A program made the position numbers and the translations under genes. This document shows, piece after piece, positions 33,830-51,912 of a stretch of DNA of 64,000 nt. The notes under the pieces were generated by a model. It saw only the letters and a program-made list of their open reading frames with translations, was not told the DNA's origin and did not search any database. The stretch's first letter is position 1; each line of letters opens with the position of its first letter. Origin of the DNA: the human T2T-CHM13v2.0 reference genome, Homo sapiens; assembly GCF_009914755.1 (NCBI RefSeq), contig NC_060943.1. One strand, given 5' to 3'.

Positions 33830-34239
33830 TGATCCGCCCACCTCGGCTTCCCAACGTGCTGGGGAAAACTTGATTTTCTATAGCATTATGTTACTGGATA
33901 TTTCTGTAAAATTTAAAACGAGGGAGGGAGAGAGACAGACAGAGAGCAAACTCCAGAGTTGGGACTCTGGAATCTTGGGTCATGAGACAAATTTTAGATT
34001 AAACTACAAAACTCCAGAATTTACAGGTGTGGTTTTTGCTGATAAAGTACAATTCTAAGATTGTAAATAATTGCATAATCCTTCCCTGGGAATTTAAATC
34101 ATTTTAGCTGGTTCTGCTGTAATACTAGAAATACAAGCATGAAAAATTCTAATGGTTTATTAGTCACAATGACTCCGAAAACATTAATAATACCTATTAG
34201 ATACTTTGCATATTACACAGGAAGAAGAGTTTGAATCTC

Positions 34240-34627
34240 AGATAAAAACAAAAAAAATACATGAAAAGTCTTTCATGTTAGCACAGATTTTAGGCATCTC
34301 GTGTTCGGATAAAAATACATGAAAAGTCTTTCACGTTAGCACAGATTTTAGGCATCTTGTGTTCGGGAGGTTGGATCTGAGACGTGTTGTGAGTTGGTCA
34401 TAGTGAAGGACGTGAGGTGCCAATTCTAGTGAGAACAATTTCCAGGAAGCCGTGTTCCGCTCTTGAGCAAGCATCCACTGGGCCTCATGCAAGGTAGAAA
34501 GAGCCTGCGTACGTCACCCTCCCATGATGTAGTCAACATGTAAGCTGCATGGGCAGGGCGCCAAATAACATCCTGTGCGCTGCTGAGCTGAGCTGGGGCG
34601 CGGCCGCCTGTCTGCACCGGCAGCACC
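34240..34627 (+). promoter_or_regulatory. KIR3DP1 promoter with inactivated RUNX site and ~58-bp tandem duplication
   Basis: TGTAGT at 34528-34533 (G>A at -97) versus TGTGGT in 2DL1 and 2DL2. Duplicated unit at 34253-34308 and 34311-34366. Confidence 0.85.
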
Positions 34628-38617
<3,990 letters not shown>

Positions 38618-39883
38618 TAGTGGGACTCAGACGGACTACAATGGCCACATTCAGGGGAGCCTCAGATGGAGGGGGTGGCCATGGGGGTGTCAGCCAGAGA
38701 TGCTGGACAGAAGAGACACAAAGCAAACATACAGAAAGAGGCATAGACAGACAGACAGAGCGAGGCAGACAGATCACATTAGGGTTTGGGGTGGTAACTG
38801 CAACCCTACCTGAAGCTTGCAGATAGAGCACAGGCCACATAAACCACTTCCCAGTCTTTGTACAGAAGCCCACCTGGGACACATGTAAACAGCATCAATG
38901 CTGACTCAGGAGCATGAAAGGCCGGGCTCAGATTGGAAAGACTAGAGGTAGCATTGGCCGCCCGCCATTGCCCATTTCCAGAAGCCCCCACCTCTCACCA
39001 AAGAGTGATTTCCACATGGGGGGCACAGATGCAACCATCGTTGGGGGAGCCCCAATGTCTCTTGATGGGAGGCATTTTCCACCCTAGATGTTTTTTGCTC
39101 TCTCCACACCTTGGAGACTCAGTGGGGGAGTCTTCTCTGGGGACTCGGGGAGGGCCTCCCTGGGACTCGCAGGATTTCCAAGCTAGATGACAACATGACA
39201 GGTGGAAACAGGCCCATTCCTTCGCCAGGGGCCCCAAGCTCCATCCCAGGAGATGAGAAGAGGCTCTTCTCATTGGTCAGTGGATCCCTGAGGGGACAGA
39301 GGCTCAGCACTGAAGGCTGAGAAGGATCTGCCACTTCGCTCAGTGGCCTCAAGCCAGACATCTTCCCTACAGACTTGCAGTGATTCTCCATCAGCATTTA
39401 GGGCTGTGGCCACCAACCTGGGTGTTGGTCTGTAGGAACTTTTCATTTCTGACCTTCCATAACTGAGTTCTCTTCCTAAATGTGGAATGCCTTGTACTCC
39501 ATGTTACTCTCTCCCCAGAAAGAATGTGTGGCTTGTCTGCTCTCCAGCCCTGTCATGGAGATTGATAATCCTTAGGGAGCAAGAGGAGAGGGAAAGAACA
39601 AAGTATGAGACCACCTAGGTGCTACTGGTTGAGGTTCCATTTGCCAGTGAAGGGACTTCACTCAGCCGAGGGGGCAACTCAGGGAAGTCAGCCGAGGGAG
39701 GGCATTAGAGTAGAGAGAACTGAGCTCACCCAGTAAATGACCCCTTCACTAACTCATTCATCTAATATTTATTTCACACCTACCATCAGTTCTCTCTGTT
39801 TCATGGCCAGGAGTAGACAGCACGGCCAAGCTCCTGGGTTCATGATGCTCACATTGCTGTGGGGTGGGAGAGAGAGGCAGAAC

Positions 39884-39972
39884 ATGAATGAATGAATGAG
39901 AGAATGAATGAATGAGTGAATGATGGAATGAGTGAATGAATGAATGAATGAATGTATGAATTAGTGAGTGAA
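39884..39972 (+). repeat. (TGAA)n microsatellite
   Basis: Visible ATGA/GTGA tetramer run. Confidence 0.9.
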
Positions 39973-40339
39973 TCCTTAGCACTTGGTGAAAGTGCCATGC
40001 ACAGAATGAAATGAATGAACGTGGAACGTTGTCATTTGGAGTGTACAGGAGGGAACGTCTCACTGAGACCTCATCAGAGAGATCACATTTAAACTCCGAT
40101 CTTAGAGACAAGAGGGAGTGAGCCCTGGGGAGTGTGTTGAAAGGAACTTTCATGGACTTAGGACATTGGGGATGACCCTAATGTGAGAATGAGCTTGGTG
40201 TGTTCCAAGAAGTCCATGGACCTGCCATATGGTGAGGGCTGGTCAGAATCCAGAGAGATTTCTAAATGCCCTTGTGCTTGTAAGGAAAGTGAGTCCTGTG
40301 GTTGGGAGTGGACTTATACCTTGGGTCAGGTCCAGCAAT

Positions 40340-43300
40340 TATCTTTCTAAATCCTCTCTAATTGCCTGAACCACTTCTATCAACAACTGAGAAAAGAGGA
40401 GTGTTAAACACCCCACTGTGGCCGTGGATTTGCCTACCTGTCCATTTATTTCCGCGACTCTTCCTCCATGTATATTTGCAGGAATATTACTGGGAGTGGT
40501 TAAGTGTAAACTGATTATATATTCCTGGTAAATTTAAAATGCTATAAATTTACCTGCTTTTTTCCTACATTTTATGCTTAATGTTTTCCGCTGATTTTTC
40601 CCAAAGACTAATTTTGTCTAATTTTAATATAGTTATACCACATTTCTAACAGTGATTGCTTGGTATATTTCTACATTGTTTAATTTCAAACTCCATGAAT
40701 TGTTAACATTGAGATGTGTCCTTTGTAAATTTCAAACAATTCGCCTTAGAAAGTAAGACTTTCTGACAATCTTTTGTTCATGTTTGAGCAGTTCTTCCAA
40801 TCATATTTTTGTTATTATTACGTTGTGTTTTCCTGATTCCCTTTTTTTCCCACTGACTTCTGTGGTTTTCTATTTCAAACATTCTATTTTTGATCTATGT
40901 CGTTTAGGAATACATATATGGTGTACTCATCCTGAAGTTGTTACATATTTTTAAAATTGAAATTAATCATTTCAGAGATTAAACTGCAAATATAAAAACA
41001 TATTTCCACTCTTCCTGTGTAAGAACAGGATTTTAGAGCATATTTAGTACATATGTTTGTATTTACTTATATGATGTTTTGTTTTGTGGTATACATAATT
41101 CTATCTTTTTCAGAAATTACACAGGGGCGTGTTTTCATACACTATCGTATGGTCCATATTCATTTTTGGCATAGCCATATTTTTAGTTCTTCCTCTGCTC
41201 TTAGTTATTGTCAGAATCTTCGACACCCCATCTGGTTTCACTTTCTTTATCTTTGAGGCACGGTCATCAGAATTTCCTTTAGGGTCAGTGAGAAAAGCTT
41301 TCTTTGCCCTTTTGTCTTTCAGTTCTGTTTCTTTCCTGCGTTGATCTTGGACAGTAACTGTACTATGTAAGGAATTGTCGGTGGCTGGCGACGGTATCTT
41401 AGCTGGGTAAAGATGCTATTCTACTGGCTTATGTTTTCCTTTTTTCTGTGGGGAAGACAATGCTTGGCTCCCTATAAATCCTTACCAGCTGATCCTTTTC
41501 CTCTGGCTAATTTTAAGGGTTGGTTGTGCTTTTATGCTGCTTTTCTGTAATGTTGAACGTGAGGTGTGTTTACTTCATTCTGCCTGGCATTCACTGGATT
41601 TCTTGAACCTGTGGATTGATGGATGTGTCTACTTCCTCCAAATAATCAACAATTGCCTCTTTAAAGATTGCTTCTGACCTGTTTTCTCGTTCTTTCTTTT
41701 TGGAACTCAAGTTAGGAGCATTCTAAAACTGTTGTCAATTTTTACCCTGTCACAAAACTGCTCTTTCTTGTTTCAGTTATTTGCTTTTTCTGTGCATTAA
41801 TATTGATGGTTTCCTCTGTCATAGAGGATAAATACTCTCTTCACTGTTGTGTACACAACATTTTAACTAGTTATTCTGGTTTAAATTTAATATTGACTTT
41901 ATCTACATATCACAATTGATTACTGTGTACAGACTTTCTTTTCTATTAGTATAAATTTATGAGGTACACTTGTAATTTTGTGACATGAGTATGTTGCAGA
42001 GTAGTGAAGTCAGGACTTTTACTATATCCATCACCCAAATACCGTACATTGTACTCATTAAGCAAATTCTCATCACTCACCCACGTCCCGCCACCCTCCA
42101 GCCTTCTAGCCTCCGCTGTCCGTCATTCCACACTCTACGTCCATATGTACACATTACTCCCCTCCCATGTAGAGTGAGAAGATGTGGTATTTGTCTTTCT
42201 GAGTGGTTTTATGTAAAATAATGGCGTCCAGCTCCATCTATGTTGCTGCAAAAGACATGGTTTTATTTTTATGACCAAATAGTATTTCGTTGTGTATACA
42301 CGCATCCTTTTTTTAATCCAATCATTCATTCACAGACACTTAGATTGATTTCATATCTTTGCTATTGCAAACAGTGCTGCAATAAACATACAGGTGCAGG
42401 TATTTTTTGAGTAGATACCCAGCAGCGGGACCCCTAGATCGAATGGTGCTTCTATTTTTGGTTCTCTGCCAAATTTCCATACTGTCTTCCATAGAGGCTA
42501 TACTAATTTACATACCGGCCAACAGTGTATAAGAGTTTCCTTTTCTCTGCATCCTTGCCAACACCTGTTATATGTTTCACTTTTTCTTTTTTTCTTTTTG
42601 AGATGGAGTCTTCCACTGTCACCCAGGCTGGAGTGCAGTGCCGCCATCTCCACGCGCTGCAACCTCCACCAACCAGGTTCAAATGATTCTCCTGCCTCAG
42701 CCTCCTGAGTAGCTGGGATTACAGAACCACACCACCATGCCCAGCTAATCTTTTGTATATTTAGTAGAGATGGGGTTTCACTATGTTGGTCAGGCTGGTC
42801 TCAAACTCCTGACCTCATGATCCACCCGCCTCAGCTTCCCAAAGTGCTGGGATTACAAGCGTGAGCCACCACTCCCCACCAGCATTTTTAGTAATAGCCA
42901 TTCTGACTACTGTAAGATGATATCTCATTGTGGTTTCAATTTGCATTTCTCTGATGATTAGTGATGTTCATACGCTGTTTGGCCATTCGTATGTCTTCTT
43001 TTGAAAAATGTCTATGTATATCCCTTTGCCCACTTTTTAATGCTATTATTTGAGGGGTTATGTTTAGTTGTTTGAGTTGCCTAGAAATTCTGGATGTTAG
43101 TCCTCTGTTGGGTGCATAGTTTGCAAACATTTCCATTCATTCTGTGGGTTGTCTGTTCACCCTGCTACTATTTCCTTTGCTTGGCAGAAGCTCTTTCGTT
43201 TATTAAGTCCCATTGGTCTAGTTTTATTTTTATTGCCTGTGCTTTTGAGGTCTTAGTGATGAATTCTTTGCCCAGACCAATGCCCAGAAGAGTTTCTCTT

Positions 43301-44480
43301 TGGGTTTCCACCGGTGATTTTATAGTTCTGGATTTACATTTAAGCTGCTAATTACCTTAAGTTAATTTATGTGTATGATTACAGATACAGGTCCAGTTTT
43401 ATTCTTCTGCATATGGCTATTTAGTTTTCCCAGCACCTTTTATTGAAAAGGAAATCTTTCTCCAGTGTATGTTTTGTTAACGTCGTCAATGATTATTCAC
43501 TGTAGATATGAGGCTGTATTTCTGGGCTCTCTATTCTGGTCTATTGATCTCTGTTTCTGTGTCTATACCAGCACTGTGCTATTTAAGTTACTATAGCCTT
43601 AGAGCATAGTTTGAAGTCAGATAGCGTGATGCCTCCAGGTTTCTACATTCACCTAGAATTGCTTTCTCTATTAGGATCTTTTTTGGTTCTGTATGAATTT
43701 TAGGATTGCTTTTTCTAATTCTGTGAAAGCTGGTGTTACTATTTTCATATAAGAATTGCACTGAATCTGTAGATTGCTTTAGGCAGTATGGTCATTTTAA
43801 CAATATTAATTCTTATGATCCATGAGCGTGGGATTTTTTTTCTTTTTTTTTTTTTGTATTATCTATAATTGCTTTCATTGGTGTCTTACACCTTTCCTGG
43901 TACAGCTCTTTCACCACGTTGGTTAAATGTATTCCTGAGTGTTTTAATTTTGCGTATCTATTGTAAACGGCATTGCCTTCTTGATTTGGTTCTCAGCTAG
44001 ATCATTATAGGTGTAGAGAAATGCTACCGGCTTTTACATATTGATTTTGTATTCTGAAACTTTACTTAGTTCATTTATCAATCATAAGAATTTTTGGCAG
44101 GGTCTTTAGGATTTTCTAGATTTAAGATCATAGCATCAGAAATAAAAATAATTTTACTTCCTCTTTTCTAATTTGGATTTTTAATTCTTCCTGTTGCCCA
44201 ATAGCTCTGACAAGGCTTCCAGTACTATGTTGATAGGAAGTGGTGGATGTCCGTGTCCTTGTCTTGTGCCAGTTCTCAGAGGAGTGCTTTTAACTTTTCC
44301 TGTTCAGTATGATGTTGACTCTAGATATGTCATCTATGGCTTTTATTATTTTGAGGTATGTTCTTTCTATGCCTAAGTTTTTGAGGGTTTTCATCAGGTA
44401 AGGATGTTGAATTTCTTTTCAGATGCTTTTCTTTATGTCTATTGAGATGATCATATGGTTTTTGTTCTGGATTCTGCTCG
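40340..44480. mobile_element. L1 fragments (old L1M-like ~40340-41930; antisense L1 3' end/ORF2 ~41940-44480) with an Alu at ~42580-42880
   Basis: Antisense L1 motifs (TTGCATTTCTCTGATGATTAGTG, TTTTCCCAGCACCTTTTATTGAA, TTCCAGTACTATGTTG). Frames are heavily broken. Confidence 0.75.
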
Positions 44481-44966
44481 TTCTTCTAAGTGGATGAGAC
44501 ATGCCAGAAAAGCATTTAGTCAGCCATCTTGGAAACAAGCATCTCAGATGTTTTCTTTCTCTATAGCTCATTCTTTCTTACCAGTGTTTTCAATTTTGTA
44601 CTTAATTTTGTAAAGAGAGTAAATGATATAATTTCCACATATGTTTCCTCTGCCAAATCAGACTCACTATGCTTCCTTTCCTTGTATGCATAACCTACCC
44701 AGCAATACACACAAACATTTATTGCTTTGGAGAATTAGTTTGGGAACATTTTTGAAATGTACAAAAAAATGTATATCTTCAAAAGAAATTTCTTTTTGTG
44801 GCAAAAGACTTCTGAAGGTGCTCATGATGATATAGGGAGAAGAGGGGTTCTGGACAGGAAGAATTTTATGAAGGTGAGATGGGGAAATAGCTCCATTTCA
44901 GAGCTTCTGGGGAGAGAGGGGCCTGGCCCACATGGAAAGGTCTCTGATCTTACCCCCACCCTCCAG

Positions 44967-45106
44967 CCCCTGTTCTCCAGAACTATACTGTGGAGAGTTC
45001 CATCAGGATTGTTGTGGCTGGTCTGGTCTTCCTGGCTCTTTTGGCAATGCTGGCTAAGACCTGGTGGAGACATGAGGGGCCACAGGTGGAAATGGAAGAA
45101 ACATGA
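44967..45106 (+). other. Orphan exon encoding an FCAR/LILRA/NCR1-like activating transmembrane segment and short tail (xPVLQNYTVESSIRIVVAGLVFLALLAMLAKTWWRHEGPQVEMEET*)
   Basis: Pyrimidine-rich acceptor ...CCCACCCTCCAG at 44966; phase-1 open frame to TGA 45104-45106. The QxYT...IR..VAGLV motif is typical of FcRgamma-coupled LRC receptors. Confidence 0.7.
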
Positions 45107-46214
45107 CTGAAGCTGGCTGGAGTGAATGGCGCGACATTCTGTCTGTGGGAGATTGGCCAGATGGGTTTCAAGTGTGTTGTATCAGCTGTGACTTTTAGTA
45201 ATGTTCTTGCTACCACAATATCCACTCGTCCATCCCGAATAATTGTGATGAAATATTGTCCTTGGGATAATATTCATTTGCTAAAGACAGGGATGATACC
45301 TCAAGGTGCCACTATATACATCGAGGGGATCCACAAAAGTCCATTCAGTAAAATGTAGTTGGCATCTTAGGGTAGGTTGATTCCACCTCTAAAAAAGTAG
45401 GTACAACATCAGGTTGATTTTTCCGAAGAAAAGTGGTGATTGGCCATCTTTAGTCTCAATGTAAACGGTAATACTGATGAGTGTGGAAAAGGCAGGGAAG
45501 AGGATTGACAATAAGTGACACTCATTGTTTTCATCTGAGCTTTGAGACTGAAAGAGGAACACAGGAGTGAGATGTATGGGAACAAACCCCTTCTTTTTCC
45601 AGCTAAACAGAGTGGAAGTTGGACACTGAGTTTTGGCGTACAGCAAAATCCTAAGTCCATTGTTGGGTTGAACACGGCCATGTTGTACATCCTGGTTTCA
45701 CAGCAGACACTGGAGGAAAACAGCCTGTATTCATAAGAGGCTGTCCCTCGGGTCACTGCCCAGAATATCCGGAGTTGGTGCTCACAGGGTTGGGAACTCT
45801 CCTGGACCAGACAGGCTCTGGATATGGGGGGGTACCAAGCTCCCCGGGGCCATGCCTCCACAGCTCTCTTCTCACCTCATTCTTGACCATTTCCCAAACC
45901 TCTGACCTCACCTTCATTCATCCATGGTGAACACGCTAAAGCTGGCCTTCAAAGCTTGAGACAGAGGAAAATTGGGCTTCATCTCTGGGAACTAAATTGG
46001 GGAGTGGAGACTCAGTTCTGGCCTGACAGGAGGGAGAAGACCCTGGATCCCAGTGTGGATGGGAAGAAGTATGTGTTTCTCTTTTGTGCTTGGACCCTGT
46101 GTCCAAGCATGTCTGAGATGTGATGAAGATGAATCTTCCTTTCCTTGTCTATTTTCTCATGCCAGAGAATTGGAATCTTATATTCCATTAACTCTTTCTG
46201 TTCTGTTCATCCAG

Positions 46215-46252
46215 ATTCTATGAAGGAGAAAGGAAAAGATGTGATACTGTAA
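46215..46252 (+). other. KIR3DP1: Candidate KIR3DP1 terminal exon ('exon 5b'-like) encoding DSMKEKGKDVIL*
   Basis: Strong acceptor (CTCTTTCTGTTCTGTTCATCCAG). The 38 coding nt are in phase 1 with the D2 donor. With exon 2 present the product would be 328 aa and secreted, matching my recollection of the expressed KIR3DP1 form. Confidence 0.6.
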
Positions 46253-46658
46253 TTTTGCTCCATTTGTCTAAAATGAGTAGGCTGCAACTCCTCTTGAAGT
46301 GATACCTTTTCTAGCTCTTGTTGGAGGTGTCTCAGGACTCATTACTTCGGGGAACCTGCAACTGTGTCAGTCTGGGGAAACTGCAAATATTCTTGTCTTA
46401 CATTTGTCTCCAGCCAATTGTGATGGACTCCAGTGACCTGCAATTGCTGTTATTGCAGGTAAAATGTACCTGAGTCAGGCCACAGTTCTCCTGGACTATG
46501 AGCCCCTGGCCATGTTCCTGAGGCAATTCTGTTCATCTAAATATAATAATAATAACACACTAAAAATGGCAAGCCATTGTTAATTCCTGAAGTCTCATTT
46601 GAAAATTACTAAATGTCTGTTATTTTTTGGTGTTTACATTATATGTAGACAGATAAAC

Positions 46659-46688
46659 TACACACACACACACACACACATGCACACA
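46659..46688 (+). repeat. (CA)n microsatellite
   Basis: Visible CA run. Confidence 0.9.
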
Positions 46689-46989
46689 GAAGAATGGATT
46701 GGTTCATGTAGAAAAGTAAATAATTCAAGATGAAAGGATGAAATGTCATGGCACCTACTATTCTATTTTAGATAAAGGGTCTATGAAAAGATTGATTTCT
46801 TTTTATGTTTTATTTGTTGACATTTGAACACAAACTATGTAAGTGAGGGAGTCGATTTGAAAGGGAGAAGAGCAAGTTCAAACACATTCAGGTGAGGTCA
46901 TGCTTTACATGTTTTAATTGAAATGATCCATCTTGGGAGTAGATCAATAACTGAGATGGTGCCAGGAATGTTAAAAAGCTTTTGTCAGT

Positions 46990-50990
<4,001 letters not shown>

Positions 50991-51639
50991 AGGCCACCCT
51001 GGGCAAACAGTGAGACCCATCCCTTTTTAAAAATTATGAGTTTTACAAATTTAAAATGCATAGTGAAAAAGTTCTTACAAACTCCAGAAAGGTAGGTGTA
51101 AATAAGAGACATTTGTAAGAATGACAGCACATTAAATGTGTAGATTTCAACCTTCAGTTATTGCAATATTCCAGTATCAAGTTGGAGGATGTTATCAGTC
51201 TGATATTTTTTCCTCAAATGAGAGAGAGAAAGAAAGACACACAAACAACACAGGGAGAAAAAAAGCACACGTTACAGAGAGACAAAAAGGGAGACAGGGA
51301 ACTGTGAATTTGGACTCTTGTGTCATAAGACAAATTCTAGATAACACGACCAGACCTTCAATTGACATATTGTGTTTTTGCTAATAAGGTGGAATTCTAT
51401 GATGCGAAATAACTATATAGTCTTTTCTACTGGGATTTAAATCATTTTATCTGTTTCTGGCTTAACAGGAAAAATACAACCATGGAAAATTATGATGATT
51501 TATTTAATACGATTGCTCTATAGTGTTAATAAAACCTATTAGGTATTTTGCATATTACATATCAAGGAGAGTTTGAATCTCAGGTAGAAACAAAAAAAAA
51601 TACATCAAAAGTTCCTCATGTGAGTGCAGAATTCAATCG

Positions 51640-51912
51640 TCCCGTGCAGGGGTAAGTGAGTCTGAGATGTGTTTTGAGCCTGGCCGTTGCGCATGATGTG
51701 AACTGACAAGTCTAGTCTGCAGTTTTCAGAAACCCTCATTCCTCCCTTGACTGACTCACCACTTGAACCTCATATGACGTAGAAGAAGCCTACCTATGTC
51801 CCCTTCACATGTTGTGGTCAATGTGTCAACTGCACGATCCGGGCCCCTCACCACATCCTCTGCACCGGTCAGTCGAGCCGAGTCACTGCGTCCTGGCAGC
51901 AGAAGCTGCACC
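51640..51912 (+). promoter_or_regulatory. KIR2DL4 promoter (divergent type, two RUNX sites)
   Basis: TGTGGT 51813-51818 and inverted ACCACA 51850-51855; CRE-like TGACGT 51776-51781; AP-1 consensus TGACTCA 51752-51758. Confidence 0.75.

What the first reader, a model, noticed from the sequence alone, without database searches (positions are those of the whole stretch)
44967..45106. Intact orphan activating-receptor TM exon, in frame with KIR3DP1
Seen: the unique 3DP1-2DL4 interval contains an AG acceptor (44966) and a phase-1 open frame xPVLQNYTVESSIRIVVAGLVFLALLAMLAKTWWRHEGPQVEMEET*. It is below the ORF-track cutoff and unrelated to KIR exon 7. Established: FcRgamma-coupled LRC receptors have TM exons of this form (from memory, FCAR QDYTTQNLIRMAVAGLVLVALLAILVENW; LILRA DYTVENLIRM), with the Arg at the same position. 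Seen: the KIR3DP1 D2 exon ends in phase 1 with an intact GT donor (38592), so a 38591->44967 splice gives an uninterrupted D0-D1-D2/TM(Arg)/short-tail frame. Inference: this is the ancestral 3' end of 3DP1, an activating KIR that would use FcRgamma rather than DAP12. It could yield a membrane 3DP1 isoform on alleles with exon 2 and an active promoter. On this allele expression is unlikely. The remnant may already be noted in comparative primate KIR literature.
Basis: partly seen in the sequence, partly recalled or inferred. Interest (0 to 1): 0.8.

Follow-up and report, generated by a model that had tools for sequence, protein, structure and literature searches.

The report
Fossil Arg-transmembrane exon behind KIR3DP1
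The "unique" spacer in the middle of the human KIR gene cluster holds the still-open but decaying last exon of an extinct kind of activating KIR-like receptor, which says something about how the cluster arose but probably does nothing today.

Summary
Window 44967-45106 is an open, phase-1, 46-codon exon behind a conserved acceptor. It encodes an Arg-bearing transmembrane segment and a short tail, and it is in frame with the KIR3DP1 D2 exon.

It is a true member of the FCAR/LILRA "NxxR" transmembrane-exon class, with FCAR exon 5 the closest named gene. It is not detectably related to KIR exon 7.

New findings:
- A decayed 79% paralogue lies between LILRP1 and LILRP2, directly behind a KIR3DX-like D2 exon and stem relic.
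- The 1.5 kb after the 3DP1 exon-5 donor is single-copy, anciently diverged KIR-type sequence: intron 5, a dead stem exon and intron 6. Lineage-III identity stops about 10 nt past the donor.
- An unnamed public protein (P0005) joins three KIR-like Ig domains to the same exon subtype and tail.

The exon is therefore most likely the terminal exon of an old KIR-like activating gene, onto which the lineage-III half of 3DP1 was recombined.

It now looks dead:
- Changes on its lineage are neutral-like (12 nonsynonymous, 2 synonymous).
- Three of the class's four hallmark residues are lost.
- The stem exon is dead.
- There is no polyA signal within 1.9 kb.

No paper I could search mentions it. The equid KIR-ILTA fusion gene is the closest published analogue.

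The parts
34570..38591 (+). KIR3DP1, the lineage-III part. Exon 1 is 34570-34661 (coding from 34628). Exon 2 is absent on this allele. D0 is 34736-35020, D1 is 36471-36770 and D2 is 38298-38591.
   Evidence: blastn of KIR2DL1 and KIR2DL4 exons against 34001-38700 gave 86-96% identity and no hit for exon 2. All three Ig exons are open with AG/GT borders.
38592..38604 (+). Exon-5 GT donor, and the point where near-identity to other KIR genes ends. This is the inferred recombination or conversion breakpoint.
   Evidence: Three-way alignment of 3DP1, 2DL1 and 2DL4. They are identical through CACAG|GTGAGGAAA and then diverge.
38605..40156 (+). Anciently diverged, single-copy KIR-type sequence: intron 5, stem-exon relic and start of intron 6 (called 'X2a' in this report).
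   Evidence: nhmmer places 39219-39763 on the KIR stem exon and intron 6 of 2DL3, 2DL1 and 2DL4 (E 1e-17 to 1e-15). It places 38735-39099 on KIR intron 5 (E 5e-10 to 8e-6). It places 38642-39412 on the LILRP1-LILRP2 relic (E 3e-20). It places 39236-40156 on KIR3DX1 intron 6 (E 2e-11) (blastn). Global identity to every relative is 46-52%. A whole-genome search with 38650-39850 found 1 candidate, itself, so this is not a dispersed repeat.
39199..39249 (+). Relic of the KIR stem exon (exon 6). It is dead: there is no GT at the donor position.
   Evidence: Five-way alignment with the 2DL1, 2DL4 and KIR3DX1 stem exons and the LILRP1-LILRP2 relic. The CCAAGCTCCA core is kept and the donor reads GA. 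Coordinates are approximate.
41935..44480 (+). Dispersed repeat, read as the 3' part of a LINE-1 (family name inferred), with an Alu inside it at about 42580-42890. It is an insertion in the former intron.
   Evidence: 12009 first-look candidates genome-wide, and the 40 scored were 73-78% identical. The repeat starts near 41935.
44816..44966 (+). Conserved intron segment in front of the exon: a branch-point-like CTGAT, a pyrimidine tract and AG at 44965-44966.
   Evidence: 81% identical (155-column blastn alignment) or 95/116 to the paralogue at window -47331..-47178. About 100 nt of it also align to FCAR intron 4 (nhmmer profile positions 50-150). The acceptor is in the same column in 7 of 7 sequences.
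44967..45106 (+). The orphan exon. It is phase 1 and has 46 codons including the TGA stop. It encodes an NYT motif, SSIR (with the Arg), a hydrophobic core of about 20 residues, and the tail KTWWRHEGPQVEMEET.
45107..45125 (+). Last 19 nt of the block shared with the paralogue and with FCAR exon 5. In FCAR this stretch is still coding. Homology ends here.
   Evidence: The nhmmer profile reaches position 312-313 in X2, the paralogue and FCAR.

Best explanation
Window 44967-45106 is a fossil exon. It is the last exon (transmembrane segment plus short tail) of an extinct KIR-like activating receptor gene.

The exon belongs to the NxxR class used by FCAR, LILRA, NCR1 and related receptors. In that class an Arg near the outer face of the membrane pairs with the FcRgamma signalling chain. 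Here it forms a distinct subtype with a short tail of the form W-[WL]-x-H-x(2,3)-P-Q-[VL]-E.

The old gene ran D2 exon, intron 5, stem exon, intron 6, then this exon. Its remains fill 38.6-40.2 kb and 44.8-45.1 kb of the window. They are now split by a LINE/Alu insertion.

Later, a lineage-III KIR replaced everything up to the exon-5 donor, by recombination or gene conversion. That produced the hybrid now called KIR3DP1.

Today the exon has no demonstrable role, and its frame is open by survival rather than by selection.

What is shown: the class membership, the paralogue, the KIR-type remains, the breakpoint and the neutral pattern of change.

What is inferred: that the exon and the remains were once one gene, and the order of events.
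For: Class membership:
- FCAR exon 5 is the best named relative. The whole-genome protein search gave E 0.002. BLASTP gave 17/34 identities, E 5e-6.
- An nhmmer profile of the two copies gave E 4e-17 against FCAR. That match covers about 100 nt of upstream intron and 20 nt past the stop. LILR exons match in the exon only, at E 4e-11 to 6e-7.
- The acceptor is shared by 7 of 7 sequences.

One gene with the KIR-type remains:
- The KIR-type intron 5, stem exon and intron 6 homology begins right behind the 3DP1 donor and is single-copy.
- No KIR-type exon 7-9 relic exists anywhere in 38592-51870. All 3 nhmmer queries gave 0 hits at E<0.1.
- No Ig-domain ORF exists there either. None of the 114 ORFs scanned, out of 132 ORFs of 45 aa or more, hit an Ig family.
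- So this is the only transmembrane exon between the 3DP1 Ig exons and KIR2DL4.

The same architecture occurs elsewhere:
- At window -49405..-47022 a KIR3DX-like intron 4, D2 exon, stem relic and intron 6 is followed 190 nt later, on the same strand, by the 79% paralogue. That relic is collinear with KIR3DX1 at E 1e-112 and 2e-62.
- LILRP1 has its own LILR-type transmembrane region elsewhere, so the paralogue is not LILRP1's exon.
- Library protein P0005 has three Ig domains. They match KIR3DX1 D1 best (51%) and KIR3DX1 D2 and KIR2DL1 D2 about equally (49%). It ends in this exon subtype with the same tail.

Decay:
- 14 changes fall on this lineage against 16 on the dead paralogue. Of the 14, 12 are nonsynonymous and 2 synonymous.
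- They include D to N in DYT, N to S in NxxR and E to K at the membrane exit. These hallmarks are defined in PMC6557307 (passages read).
- P0003, P0004, P0005, FCAR and the LILR exons all keep DYT or DYA and N..IR.
- No AATAAA or ATTAAA occurs before 47004. The stem exon is dead.
Against: - The divergence levels disagree. The exon block is 79% identical between the two human copies (K about 0.25). The KIR-type remains beside them are only 46-52% identical (K 0.8-1.0). The two parts therefore do not share one simple duplication history.
- The block has a sharp 5' edge at 44816 / -47331. The 190 nt in front of the paralogue match nothing in the 3DP1 tail, KIR3DX1 or FCAR (z 0 to 1.7). The block could therefore have moved on its own.
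- P0005 comes from an unnamed, unannotated library. It carries an odd stretch of about 50 residues between D2 and the transmembrane segment. It may be an automatic gene model that merely joins neighbouring exons.
- All 3 indels fall on the paralogue and none on this exon. Together with the absence of stops (probability 0.59 under 14 random substitutions), that leaves roughly a 1 in 13 chance outcome. Some past or weak constraint is therefore not excluded.
- No other primate genome could be examined here.
Confidence: 0.6

Rival explanations
1. The exon is an independent relic. It would be the last surviving piece of a separate FCAR- or LILR-like gene, or a roughly 310-bp block that was copied on its own. 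It would lie downstream of the old KIR-type remains by accident of a crowded gene cluster, and was never spliced to KIR Ig exons at this locus.
For: - The block has a sharp, shared 5' edge, with no homology upstream of it.
- The block is much younger (K about 0.25) than the flanking KIR-type remains (K 0.8-1.0).
- Its closest named gene is FCAR, not a KIR.
- 4.7 kb separate the last KIR-type homology (40156) from the block (44816). Only about 2.5 kb of that is LINE/Alu.
Against: - The same order and strand (KIR-type D2, stem, then this exon) recurs at the LILRP1-LILRP2 relic and in P0005.
- No Ig exon relic of a second gene lies between the remains and the exon (0 of the 114 ORFs scanned).
- No FCAR or LILR intron homology exists beyond about 100 nt upstream.
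Confidence: 0.27
2. The exon is a live cryptic exon. On haplotypes where KIR3DP1 is transcribed (the *004-type allele with a KIR2DL5 promoter), exon 5 would splice to 44967. That would give a membrane-bound, Arg-bearing three-domain receptor that signals through FcRgamma.
For: - The open frame, the good donor (CAG|GTGAGG) and the conserved acceptor with its pyrimidine tract.
- No indel has struck this copy, against 3 in the paralogue.
- KIR3DP1*004 is reported as expressed (PMC3443818 and PMC11444179, passages read).
Against: - The substitution pattern is neutral, and three of the class's four hallmarks are lost.
- There is no polyA signal for 1.9 kb.
- The intron would be 6.4 kb and carries a LINE/Alu insertion.
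- RefSeq annotates nothing here and ends KIR3DP1 at 38691 (hub table).
- The title of Gomez-Lozano et al. 2005 speaks of a possibly secreted receptor. I saw it only as a citation. It implies that the transcripts seen lacked a transmembrane exon.
- This allele lacks exon 2.
Confidence: 0.05
3. The exon is a chance open frame with a chance hydrophobic stretch.
For: A shuffled version of the exon is open in frame 9% of the time. Short hydrophobic ORFs are common.
Against: - Significant, positionally specific similarity to FCAR and LILR transmembrane exons, including the intron and the acceptor.
- A 79% paralogue.
- Library relatives at E 1e-10 to 4e-4 against 1.84 billion proteins.
Confidence: 0.01

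Closest known systems
FCAR (CD89) exon 5, the transmembrane and cytoplasmic exon
   Same: - It is the best named relative at both protein and DNA level, including about 100 nt of upstream intron and the region just past this exon's stop.
- It has the same phase-1 acceptor position.
- The Arg is in register, the hydrophobic core has the same length, and the stop lies in the same exon.
   Different: - Exon identity is only 57% (80/140).
- FCAR keeps DYT, NLIR and ENW, and has a 41-residue tail.
- This exon has NYT, SSIR and KTWW, and a 16-residue tail of a different, subtype-specific form.
- FCAR follows its EC2 exon directly. Here a KIR-type stem relic lies in between.
LILRA-type transmembrane exons (activating LILR; also the LILRP1 and LILRP2 pseudogene exons)
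   Same: - The same NxxR class.
- The acceptor falls in the same column.
- Exon identity is 51-55%.
   Different: - The match is confined to the exon.
- The tails differ.
- LILRP1 and LILRP2 each have their own such exon elsewhere. The paralogue between them is therefore not theirs.
Equid KIR-ILTA fusion gene (Takahashi 2004; Futas and Horin 2013, PMC3665701, passages read)
   Same: - It is a gene with KIR-type Ig exons and an activating ILT (LILRA)-type 3' end.
- The fusion point lies between intron 5 and intron 6.
- It is described as non-functional but transcribed. This is the same architecture inferred here.
   Different: - It has been reported only in equids, and its authors say it has not been found in other ungulates.
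- Its sequence is not held by these tools, so I could not test whether its transmembrane exon is this subtype or an ordinary LILRA one.
KIR2DL4
   Same: It is a KIR with an Arg in the transmembrane segment that couples to FcRgamma (PMC1193534, passage read). In a four-way alignment its Arg aligns with the Arg here.
   Different: - Its Arg sits in a KIR-type exon 7, which is followed by ITIM-bearing exons.
- BLASTP to the orphan exon gives no alignment at E<=100.
- nhmmer gives no hit at E<=10.
KIR3DX1 / KIR3DX lineage
   Same: - The relic carrying the paralogue is collinear with KIR3DX1 from intron 4 to intron 6 (68-75% identity; K about 0.3).
- The first and second Ig domains of P0005 match KIR3DX1 best; the third scores about the same against KIR3DX1 D2 and KIR2DL1 D2.
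   Different: - KIR3DX1 itself has a KIR-type transmembrane exon about 5.4 kb after D2.
- It has no trace of this exon in its intron.

Membership tests
NxxR-type transmembrane exon of FcRgamma-coupled receptors of the leukocyte receptor complex (FCAR, LILRA, NCR1, GP6, OSCAR, TARM1) | Sequence homology of the exon to known members | tested here: met
   FCAR at E 0.002 genome-wide, BLASTP E 5e-6 and nhmmer E 8e-10. LILR exons at E 1.6e-8 to 1e-5.
NxxR-type transmembrane exon of FcRgamma-coupled receptors of the leukocyte receptor complex | Phase-1 acceptor at the conserved position, five codons before the DYT motif | tested here: met
   CCAG| falls in the same alignment column in 7 of 7 sequences. 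The FCAR exon border itself is inferred from that alignment and the reading frame, not from an annotation table.
NxxR-type transmembrane exon of FcRgamma-coupled receptors of the leukocyte receptor complex | Arg in the outer third of the transmembrane segment | tested here: met
   SSIR aligns with NLIR of FCAR and the LILR exons.
NxxR-type transmembrane exon of FcRgamma-coupled receptors of the leukocyte receptor complex | Asn three residues before the Arg (the N of NxxR; feature list from PMC6557307) | tested here: not met
   The human exon has Ser, from a derived AAT to AGT change. The Asn is kept in the paralogue and in P0003, P0004, P0005, FCAR and the LILR exons.
NxxR-type transmembrane exon of FcRgamma-coupled receptors of the leukocyte receptor complex | DYT motif before the membrane | tested here: not met
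   It reads NYT, from a derived GAC to AAC change. DYT (DYA in one LILR exon) is kept in the 6 other sequences.
NxxR-type transmembrane exon of FcRgamma-coupled receptors of the leukocyte receptor complex | Acidic residue at the cytoplasmic end of the transmembrane segment | tested here: not met
   It reads LAKTWW, from a derived E to K change. P0003 also has K. P0004, P0005, FCAR and one LILR exon (L004) have E; the other LILR exon (L005) has Q followed by D.
NxxR-type transmembrane exon of FcRgamma-coupled receptors of the leukocyte receptor complex | Short tail without ITIM, with the stop in the same exon | tested here: met
   The tail is 16 residues with no tyrosine, followed by TGA at 45104-45106.
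NxxR-type transmembrane exon of FcRgamma-coupled receptors of the leukocyte receptor complex | Physical association with FcRgamma (FCER1G) | not testable with these tools
   This needs co-expression and co-precipitation. The complex predictor takes reference chains only from bacteria, archaea and phages, so I did not use it.
KIR gene (3' half) | KIR-type intron 5, stem exon and intron 6 behind the D2 exon | tested here: met
   The homology is diverged but significant, at E 1e-17 to 8e-6. The stem exon is dead.
KIR gene (3' half) | KIR-type exons 7-9 (transmembrane and ITIM tail) | tested here: not met
   All 3 nhmmer queries gave 0 hits at E<0.1 in 38592-51870. The orphan exon does not match KIR exon 7.
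KIR-ILT hybrid genes (equid KIR-ILTA) | KIR Ig exons joined to an activating ILT/FCAR-class transmembrane exon in one transcription unit | tested here: inconclusive
   The genomic order and strand fit at two human relics, and fit P0005. No transcript evidence was available, and no sequence comparison with KIR-ILTA was possible.

The most novel reading that the evidence does not exclude
The exon and its relatives may mark a third, unrecognised old branch of the KIR family. Its members would have KIR-type Ig domains ending in an FcRgamma-type NxxR exon with its own short tail. On this reading the branch existed before the primate KIR expansion. It is still open-framed in at least one other mammal (P0005) and may be the same thing as the equid KIR-ILTA gene. 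Its carcass forms the "unique" 14-kb centre of the human KIR locus, the stretch that separates the centromeric and telomeric halves and hosts their reshuffling. KIR3DP1 would then be a lineage-III head grafted onto that carcass. A bolder sub-case is that the primordial KIR was itself such an activating receptor.
Probability: 0.35. Interest if true: 0.7.

Novelty: new member of a known kind. Interest (0 to 1): 0.55.

Why it matters
The 14-kb KIR3DP1-KIR2DL4 spacer is treated in the papers I read simply as a "unique sequence" and as the site of reciprocal recombination that builds most human KIR haplotypes (PMC3606631, passage read). This work gives that spacer an origin: it is the remains of an old KIR-like gene with an FcRgamma-type ending.

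It also explains why KIR3DP1 stops at exon 5. The cause is a recombination breakpoint at the donor, not a simple deletion of exons 6-9.

It further shows that pairing KIR-type Ig domains with an FCAR/LILRA-type signalling exon, so far published only for horses and their kin, also left traces in humans. That bears on the standing question of whether the first receptors of this complex were activating (PMC8562567, passage read).

The medical weight is low, because the exon appears dead.

Tried and rejected
**Searches that found nothing**
- Solved structures, with the peptide at E<=10: 0 matches.
- Word-indexed protein search for longer relatives: 56 candidates, none at E<=10. The same index searched with the P0005 C-terminus returned only P0005 itself, from 5 candidates. 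That library seems to hold few mammalian proteins.
- Pfam on 114 of the 132 ORFs of 45 aa or more in 38592-51870. I left out 18 that lie in Alu stretches. There was no Ig hit and nothing above a curated cut-off.

**Whole-genome DNA searches swamped by repeats**
- Searches were dominated by a LINE, the LINE start, and a minisatellite-like stretch at about 39864-39974.
- I narrowed the queries and moved to local nhmmer.

**Ideas rejected**
- That the paralogue is LILRP1's own transmembrane exon. LILRP1 has a LILR-type one at about -52202..-51466.
- That the paralogue's host is the KIR3DX2 gene described in other primates. That gene sits in tandem with KIR3DX1 and is 84-86% like it (PMC8562567). 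The relic is 68-75% like KIR3DX1 and lies between LILRP1 and LILRP2.
- That the "novel Ig receptor family" of pig and cattle is involved. It lies between NLRP2 and NLRP7 (PMC6182393).
- That cattle short-tailed KIR carry this exon. Their tails are KIR-type with a mutated ITIM (PMC4258407).

**Other dead ends**
- I looked for a decayed copy of the exon in the introns of KIR2DL3, KIR2DL1, KIR2DL4 and KIR3DX1. None was found at E<0.2.
- P0002 is a repetitive protein that matched 12 times, in the hydrophobic core only. I dismissed it.

**Papers**
- Wilson 2000 (PMC18309) and Sambrook 2005 (PMC540275) are not held.
- Martin 2000, Guethlein 2007 (orangutan haplotype), Gomez-Lozano 2005 and Takahashi 2004 were seen only as citations. 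Any of these could already describe the exon.
Full report
**Observation.**
- AG sits at 44965-44966 behind a pyrimidine-rich tract.
- The frame from 44969 gives 45 residues and then TGA.
- The KIR3DP1 D2 exon ends at 38591, with GT following.
- On this allele exon 1 (34570-34661), D0 (34736-35020), D1 (36471-36770) and D2 (38298-38591) are present and open. Exon 2 is missing.
- A conceptual join of D0, D1, D2 and the orphan exon is open throughout.

Neither the open frame nor the matching phase is evidence on its own. A shuffled copy of the exon stays open 9% of the time. Phase 1 is the rule for Ig and transmembrane exons of this gene complex (established knowledge).

**Identity of the exon.**
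A six-frame search of the window's own assembly with the peptide gave six matches.
- One was the exon itself.
- Four were transmembrane exons of the same complex: the FCAR terminal exon (E 0.002, 49% identity), the LILRP2 transmembrane exon (two stops) and two exons in the centromeric LILR cluster.
- The sixth was a chance match on chromosome 7 (E 4.4).

- BLASTP of the exon against the FCAR exon gives 17/34 identities, E 5e-6.
- In a seven-sequence DNA alignment the acceptor CCAG falls in one column for all seven. These are this exon, its paralogue, FCAR and four LILR exons.
- The Arg aligns with the FCAR and LILR Arg.
- Exon identity to FCAR is 80/140, and to the LILR exons 71-77/140.
- A profile of the exon block matches FCAR best (E 4e-17). 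Only that match extends about 100 nt into the upstream intron and about 20 nt past the stop. LILR matches (E 4e-11 to 6e-7) cover the exon only.
- KIR exon 7 of KIR2DL1, KIR2DL4 and KIR3DX1 is not matched at all.

The class is the "NxxR" transmembrane type. Guselnikov and Taranin (PMC6557307, passages read) describe it as conserved from amphibians to mammals and as tied to FcRgamma.

**A paralogue.**
A DNA search of the genome with 44490-47200 found one unique relative. It is 284 nt at 79% identity, at C19:57798669-57798953, which is window -47331..-47047.
- It covers about 150 nt of intron plus the exon.
- It has three one-base deletions and is out of frame.
- It lies between LILRP1 and LILRP2 but belongs to neither. 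LILRP1 has its own LILR-type transmembrane region at about -52202..-51466. LILRP2 has its own at -39951..-39844.
- Directly upstream of the paralogue, on the same strand, lies a decayed KIR-type gene piece: part of intron 4, a D2 exon, intron 5, a stem-exon relic and the start of intron 6.
- That piece is collinear with KIR3DX1 (nhmmer E 1e-112 and 2e-62; 68-75% identity; K about 0.3). It matches KIR2DL1, KIR2DL4 and KIR2DL3 less well (E 1e-56 to 1e-59).
- I call this relic X1, and the tail behind KIR3DP1 X2. RefSeq annotates nothing at X1 (hub table).

**What follows KIR3DP1 exon 5.**
Near-identity of 3DP1 to KIR2DL1 and KIR2DL4 ends 10-13 nt after the donor. The next 1.5 kb is not junk.
- 38735-39099 aligns to the start of KIR intron 5.
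- 39219-39763 aligns to the KIR stem exon and the start of intron 6 (E 1e-17 to 1e-15).
- 38642-39412 aligns to X1 (E 3e-20).
- 39236-40156 aligns to KIR3DX1 intron 6 (E 2e-11).

The stretch is single-copy in the genome: 1 candidate, itself. A shared transposon therefore does not explain these matches.

It is 46-52% identical to every relative in global alignment (K 0.8-1.0). For comparison, KIR2DL1 against KIR2DL4 gives K 0.07-0.2. So it is far older than the primate KIR radiation.

Its stem-exon relic at about 39199-39249 has lost the donor.

Further on:
- A LINE-like repeat with an embedded Alu lies at about 41935-44480.
- 335 nt of unique AT-rich DNA follow it.
- Then comes the exon block, 44816-45125.

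Nowhere in 38592-51870 is there a KIR-type exon 7-9 relic. All 3 nhmmer queries gave 0 hits at E<0.1. Nor is there an Ig-domain ORF: 0 of the 114 ORFs scanned, out of 132.

**Relatives in other organisms.**
A full HMMER pass of the peptide over 1.84 billion representative proteins gave 4 hits at E<=0.001.
- P0002 is a repetitive protein matched only in the hydrophobic core. I dismissed it.
- P0003 (71% identity over residues 1-42) reads like a run-through frame across an orthologous exon. Its flanks resemble the translated intron here.
- P0004 (49 aa, 59% identity) is a bare exon-sized frame.
- P0005 (374 aa) has three Pfam Ig stretches.
  - Its second domain matches KIR3DX1 D1 best: 51% and 108 bits, against 92 bits for the best LILR exon.
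  - Its third domain scores about the same against KIR3DX1 D2 (90.5 bits) and KIR2DL1 D2 (84-89 bits), each at 49-50% identity. The best LILR exon scores 76 bits and FCAR EC2 63 bits.
  - Its C-terminus is this exon subtype. When P0005 was run against KIR, LILR, FCAR and KIR3DX1 DNA, the orphan exon was the only transmembrane match at E<1e-4.

All four sequences (human, P0003, P0004, P0005) share a tail of the form W-[WL]-x-H-x(2,3)-P-Q-[VL]-E. FCAR and the LILR exons lack it.

The library carries no names or context. P0005 has an odd 50-residue stretch between D2 and the transmembrane segment. It may therefore be an automatic model that only reflects the genomic order of exons.

**Is the exon alive?**
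I polarised the differences between the two human copies using FCAR and four LILR exons as outgroups.
- In the exon, 14 changes fall on this copy and 16 on the dead paralogue, with 2 ambiguous.
- Of the 14, 12 change the residue and 2 do not. That is what unconstrained sequence gives.
- Three of them strike the class's hallmarks as listed in PMC6557307: D to N in DYT, N to S in NxxR, and E to K at the membrane exit.
- The other six sequences keep DYT or DYA and N..IR.
- All three indels are on the paralogue.
- With 14 random substitutions the frame stays open 59% of the time. Survival of the frame is thus a mild coincidence of roughly 1 in 13, not proof of selection.
- No AATAAA or ATTAAA occurs until 47004.
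- RefSeq ends KIR3DP1 at 38691 and lists no transcript over the exon (hub table).

**Explanation.**
The best reading is that the exon is the terminal exon of an old KIR-like activating gene. The remains of that gene begin at the 3DP1 exon-5 donor. KIR3DP1 is then a lineage-III KIR head recombined onto that carcass, with the crossover in the conserved end of exon 5.

What speaks for one gene rather than two neighbours:
- The order and strand are the same in X1, X2 and P0005.
- There is no other exon relic in between.
- There is no KIR-type 3' end.

What speaks against it:
- The ages disagree. The exon block has K about 0.25, while the KIR-type remains have K 0.8-1.0 between X1 and X2.
- The block has a sharp 5' edge with nothing homologous upstream.

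A model in which both relics had their 5' parts replaced would reconcile this. X1 would have been overwritten by a KIR3DX-type sequence, and X2 by lineage III. I cannot show that here.

**Literature.**
I searched full text six times and read passages in 15 papers. They were PMC7516082, PMC7708349, PMC6182393, PMC8562567, PMC4258407, PMC1559706, PMC2973822, PMC11444179, PMC2757895, PMC3443818, PMC3606631, PMC6557307 (with its one held supplement), PMC6614441, PMC1193534 and PMC3665701.
- None mentions an FCAR- or LILRA-type exon in the 3DP1-2DL4 interval.
- None mentions a KIR3DX-like relic between LILRP1 and LILRP2.
- The interval is called a "unique sequence" and a recombination site (PMC3606631).
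- The closest published thing is the equid KIR-ILTA fusion gene (PMC3665701). It has KIR Ig exons joined to an activating ILT-type end between introns 5 and 6. It is transcribed but non-functional, and its authors say it is unknown outside equids.

Several key older papers were not held: Wilson 2000, Martin 2000, Sambrook 2005, Guethlein 2007, Gomez-Lozano 2005 and Takahashi 2004.

**Verdict.**
It is a fossil of evolutionary interest rather than a functional exon.
- Class membership: about 0.95.
- Non-functional today: about 0.85.
- Former unity with the KIR-type remains behind 3DP1: about 0.65.
- The whole explanation: 0.6.

Noticed in passing
outside the window: window -49405..-47022 (G000 C19:57796596-57798979; locus L032 about 596-2979): An unannotated KIR3DX-like gene relic lies between LILRP1 and LILRP2. 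It holds part of intron 4, a decayed D2 exon, a stem relic and the start of intron 6, and it ends in the 79% paralogue of the orphan exon. Its best genome match is KIR3DX1 (69% over 768 nt).
   Followed up: yes
window 34595-34661: The RefSeq projection on this assembly places exon 1 of KIR3DL1 (NM_013289.4) on what is exon 1 of KIR3DP1. That gives KIR3DL1 a 44-kb first intron spanning KIR3DP1, the spacer and KIR2DL4. It looks like a mapping artefact of near-identical first exons.
   Followed up: no
window about 39864-39974: A stretch of about 110 nt matches, at 75-92% identity, long tandem arrays at many sites, many of them near chromosome ends (260 matches). It is minisatellite-like and sits inside the old intron-6 remains.
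   Followed up: no
window 34661-34736: This KIR3DP1 allele has only 74 nt between exon 1 and the D0 exon, and no exon 2. Exon 1 and D0 are both phase 1, so the frame would stay open with a shortened signal peptide.
   Followed up: partly
G000 C19:57645312-57645590 (locus L060): A further Ig-exon-like match to KIR D0, D1 and D2 (62-66% identity) lies about 15 kb downstream of the KIR3DX1 D2 exon. It could be a relic of the KIR3DX2 gene reported in other primates, or a LILRA2 exon.
   Followed up: no
window 46987-47177: A short dispersed repeat, 73-82% identical to many copies genome-wide. It carries the first polyA-like hexamers downstream of the orphan exon (47004, 47015, 47115).
   Followed up: no
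window 47209-49646 and 50298-50988: Further LINE-like pieces, some on the opposite strand, and two more Alus fill much of the spacer between the orphan exon and the KIR2DL4 promoter-like region at 51303-51863. That region matches the intergenic DNA in front of KIR2DL1 and KIR3DP1 at 71-74% identity.
   Followed up: no
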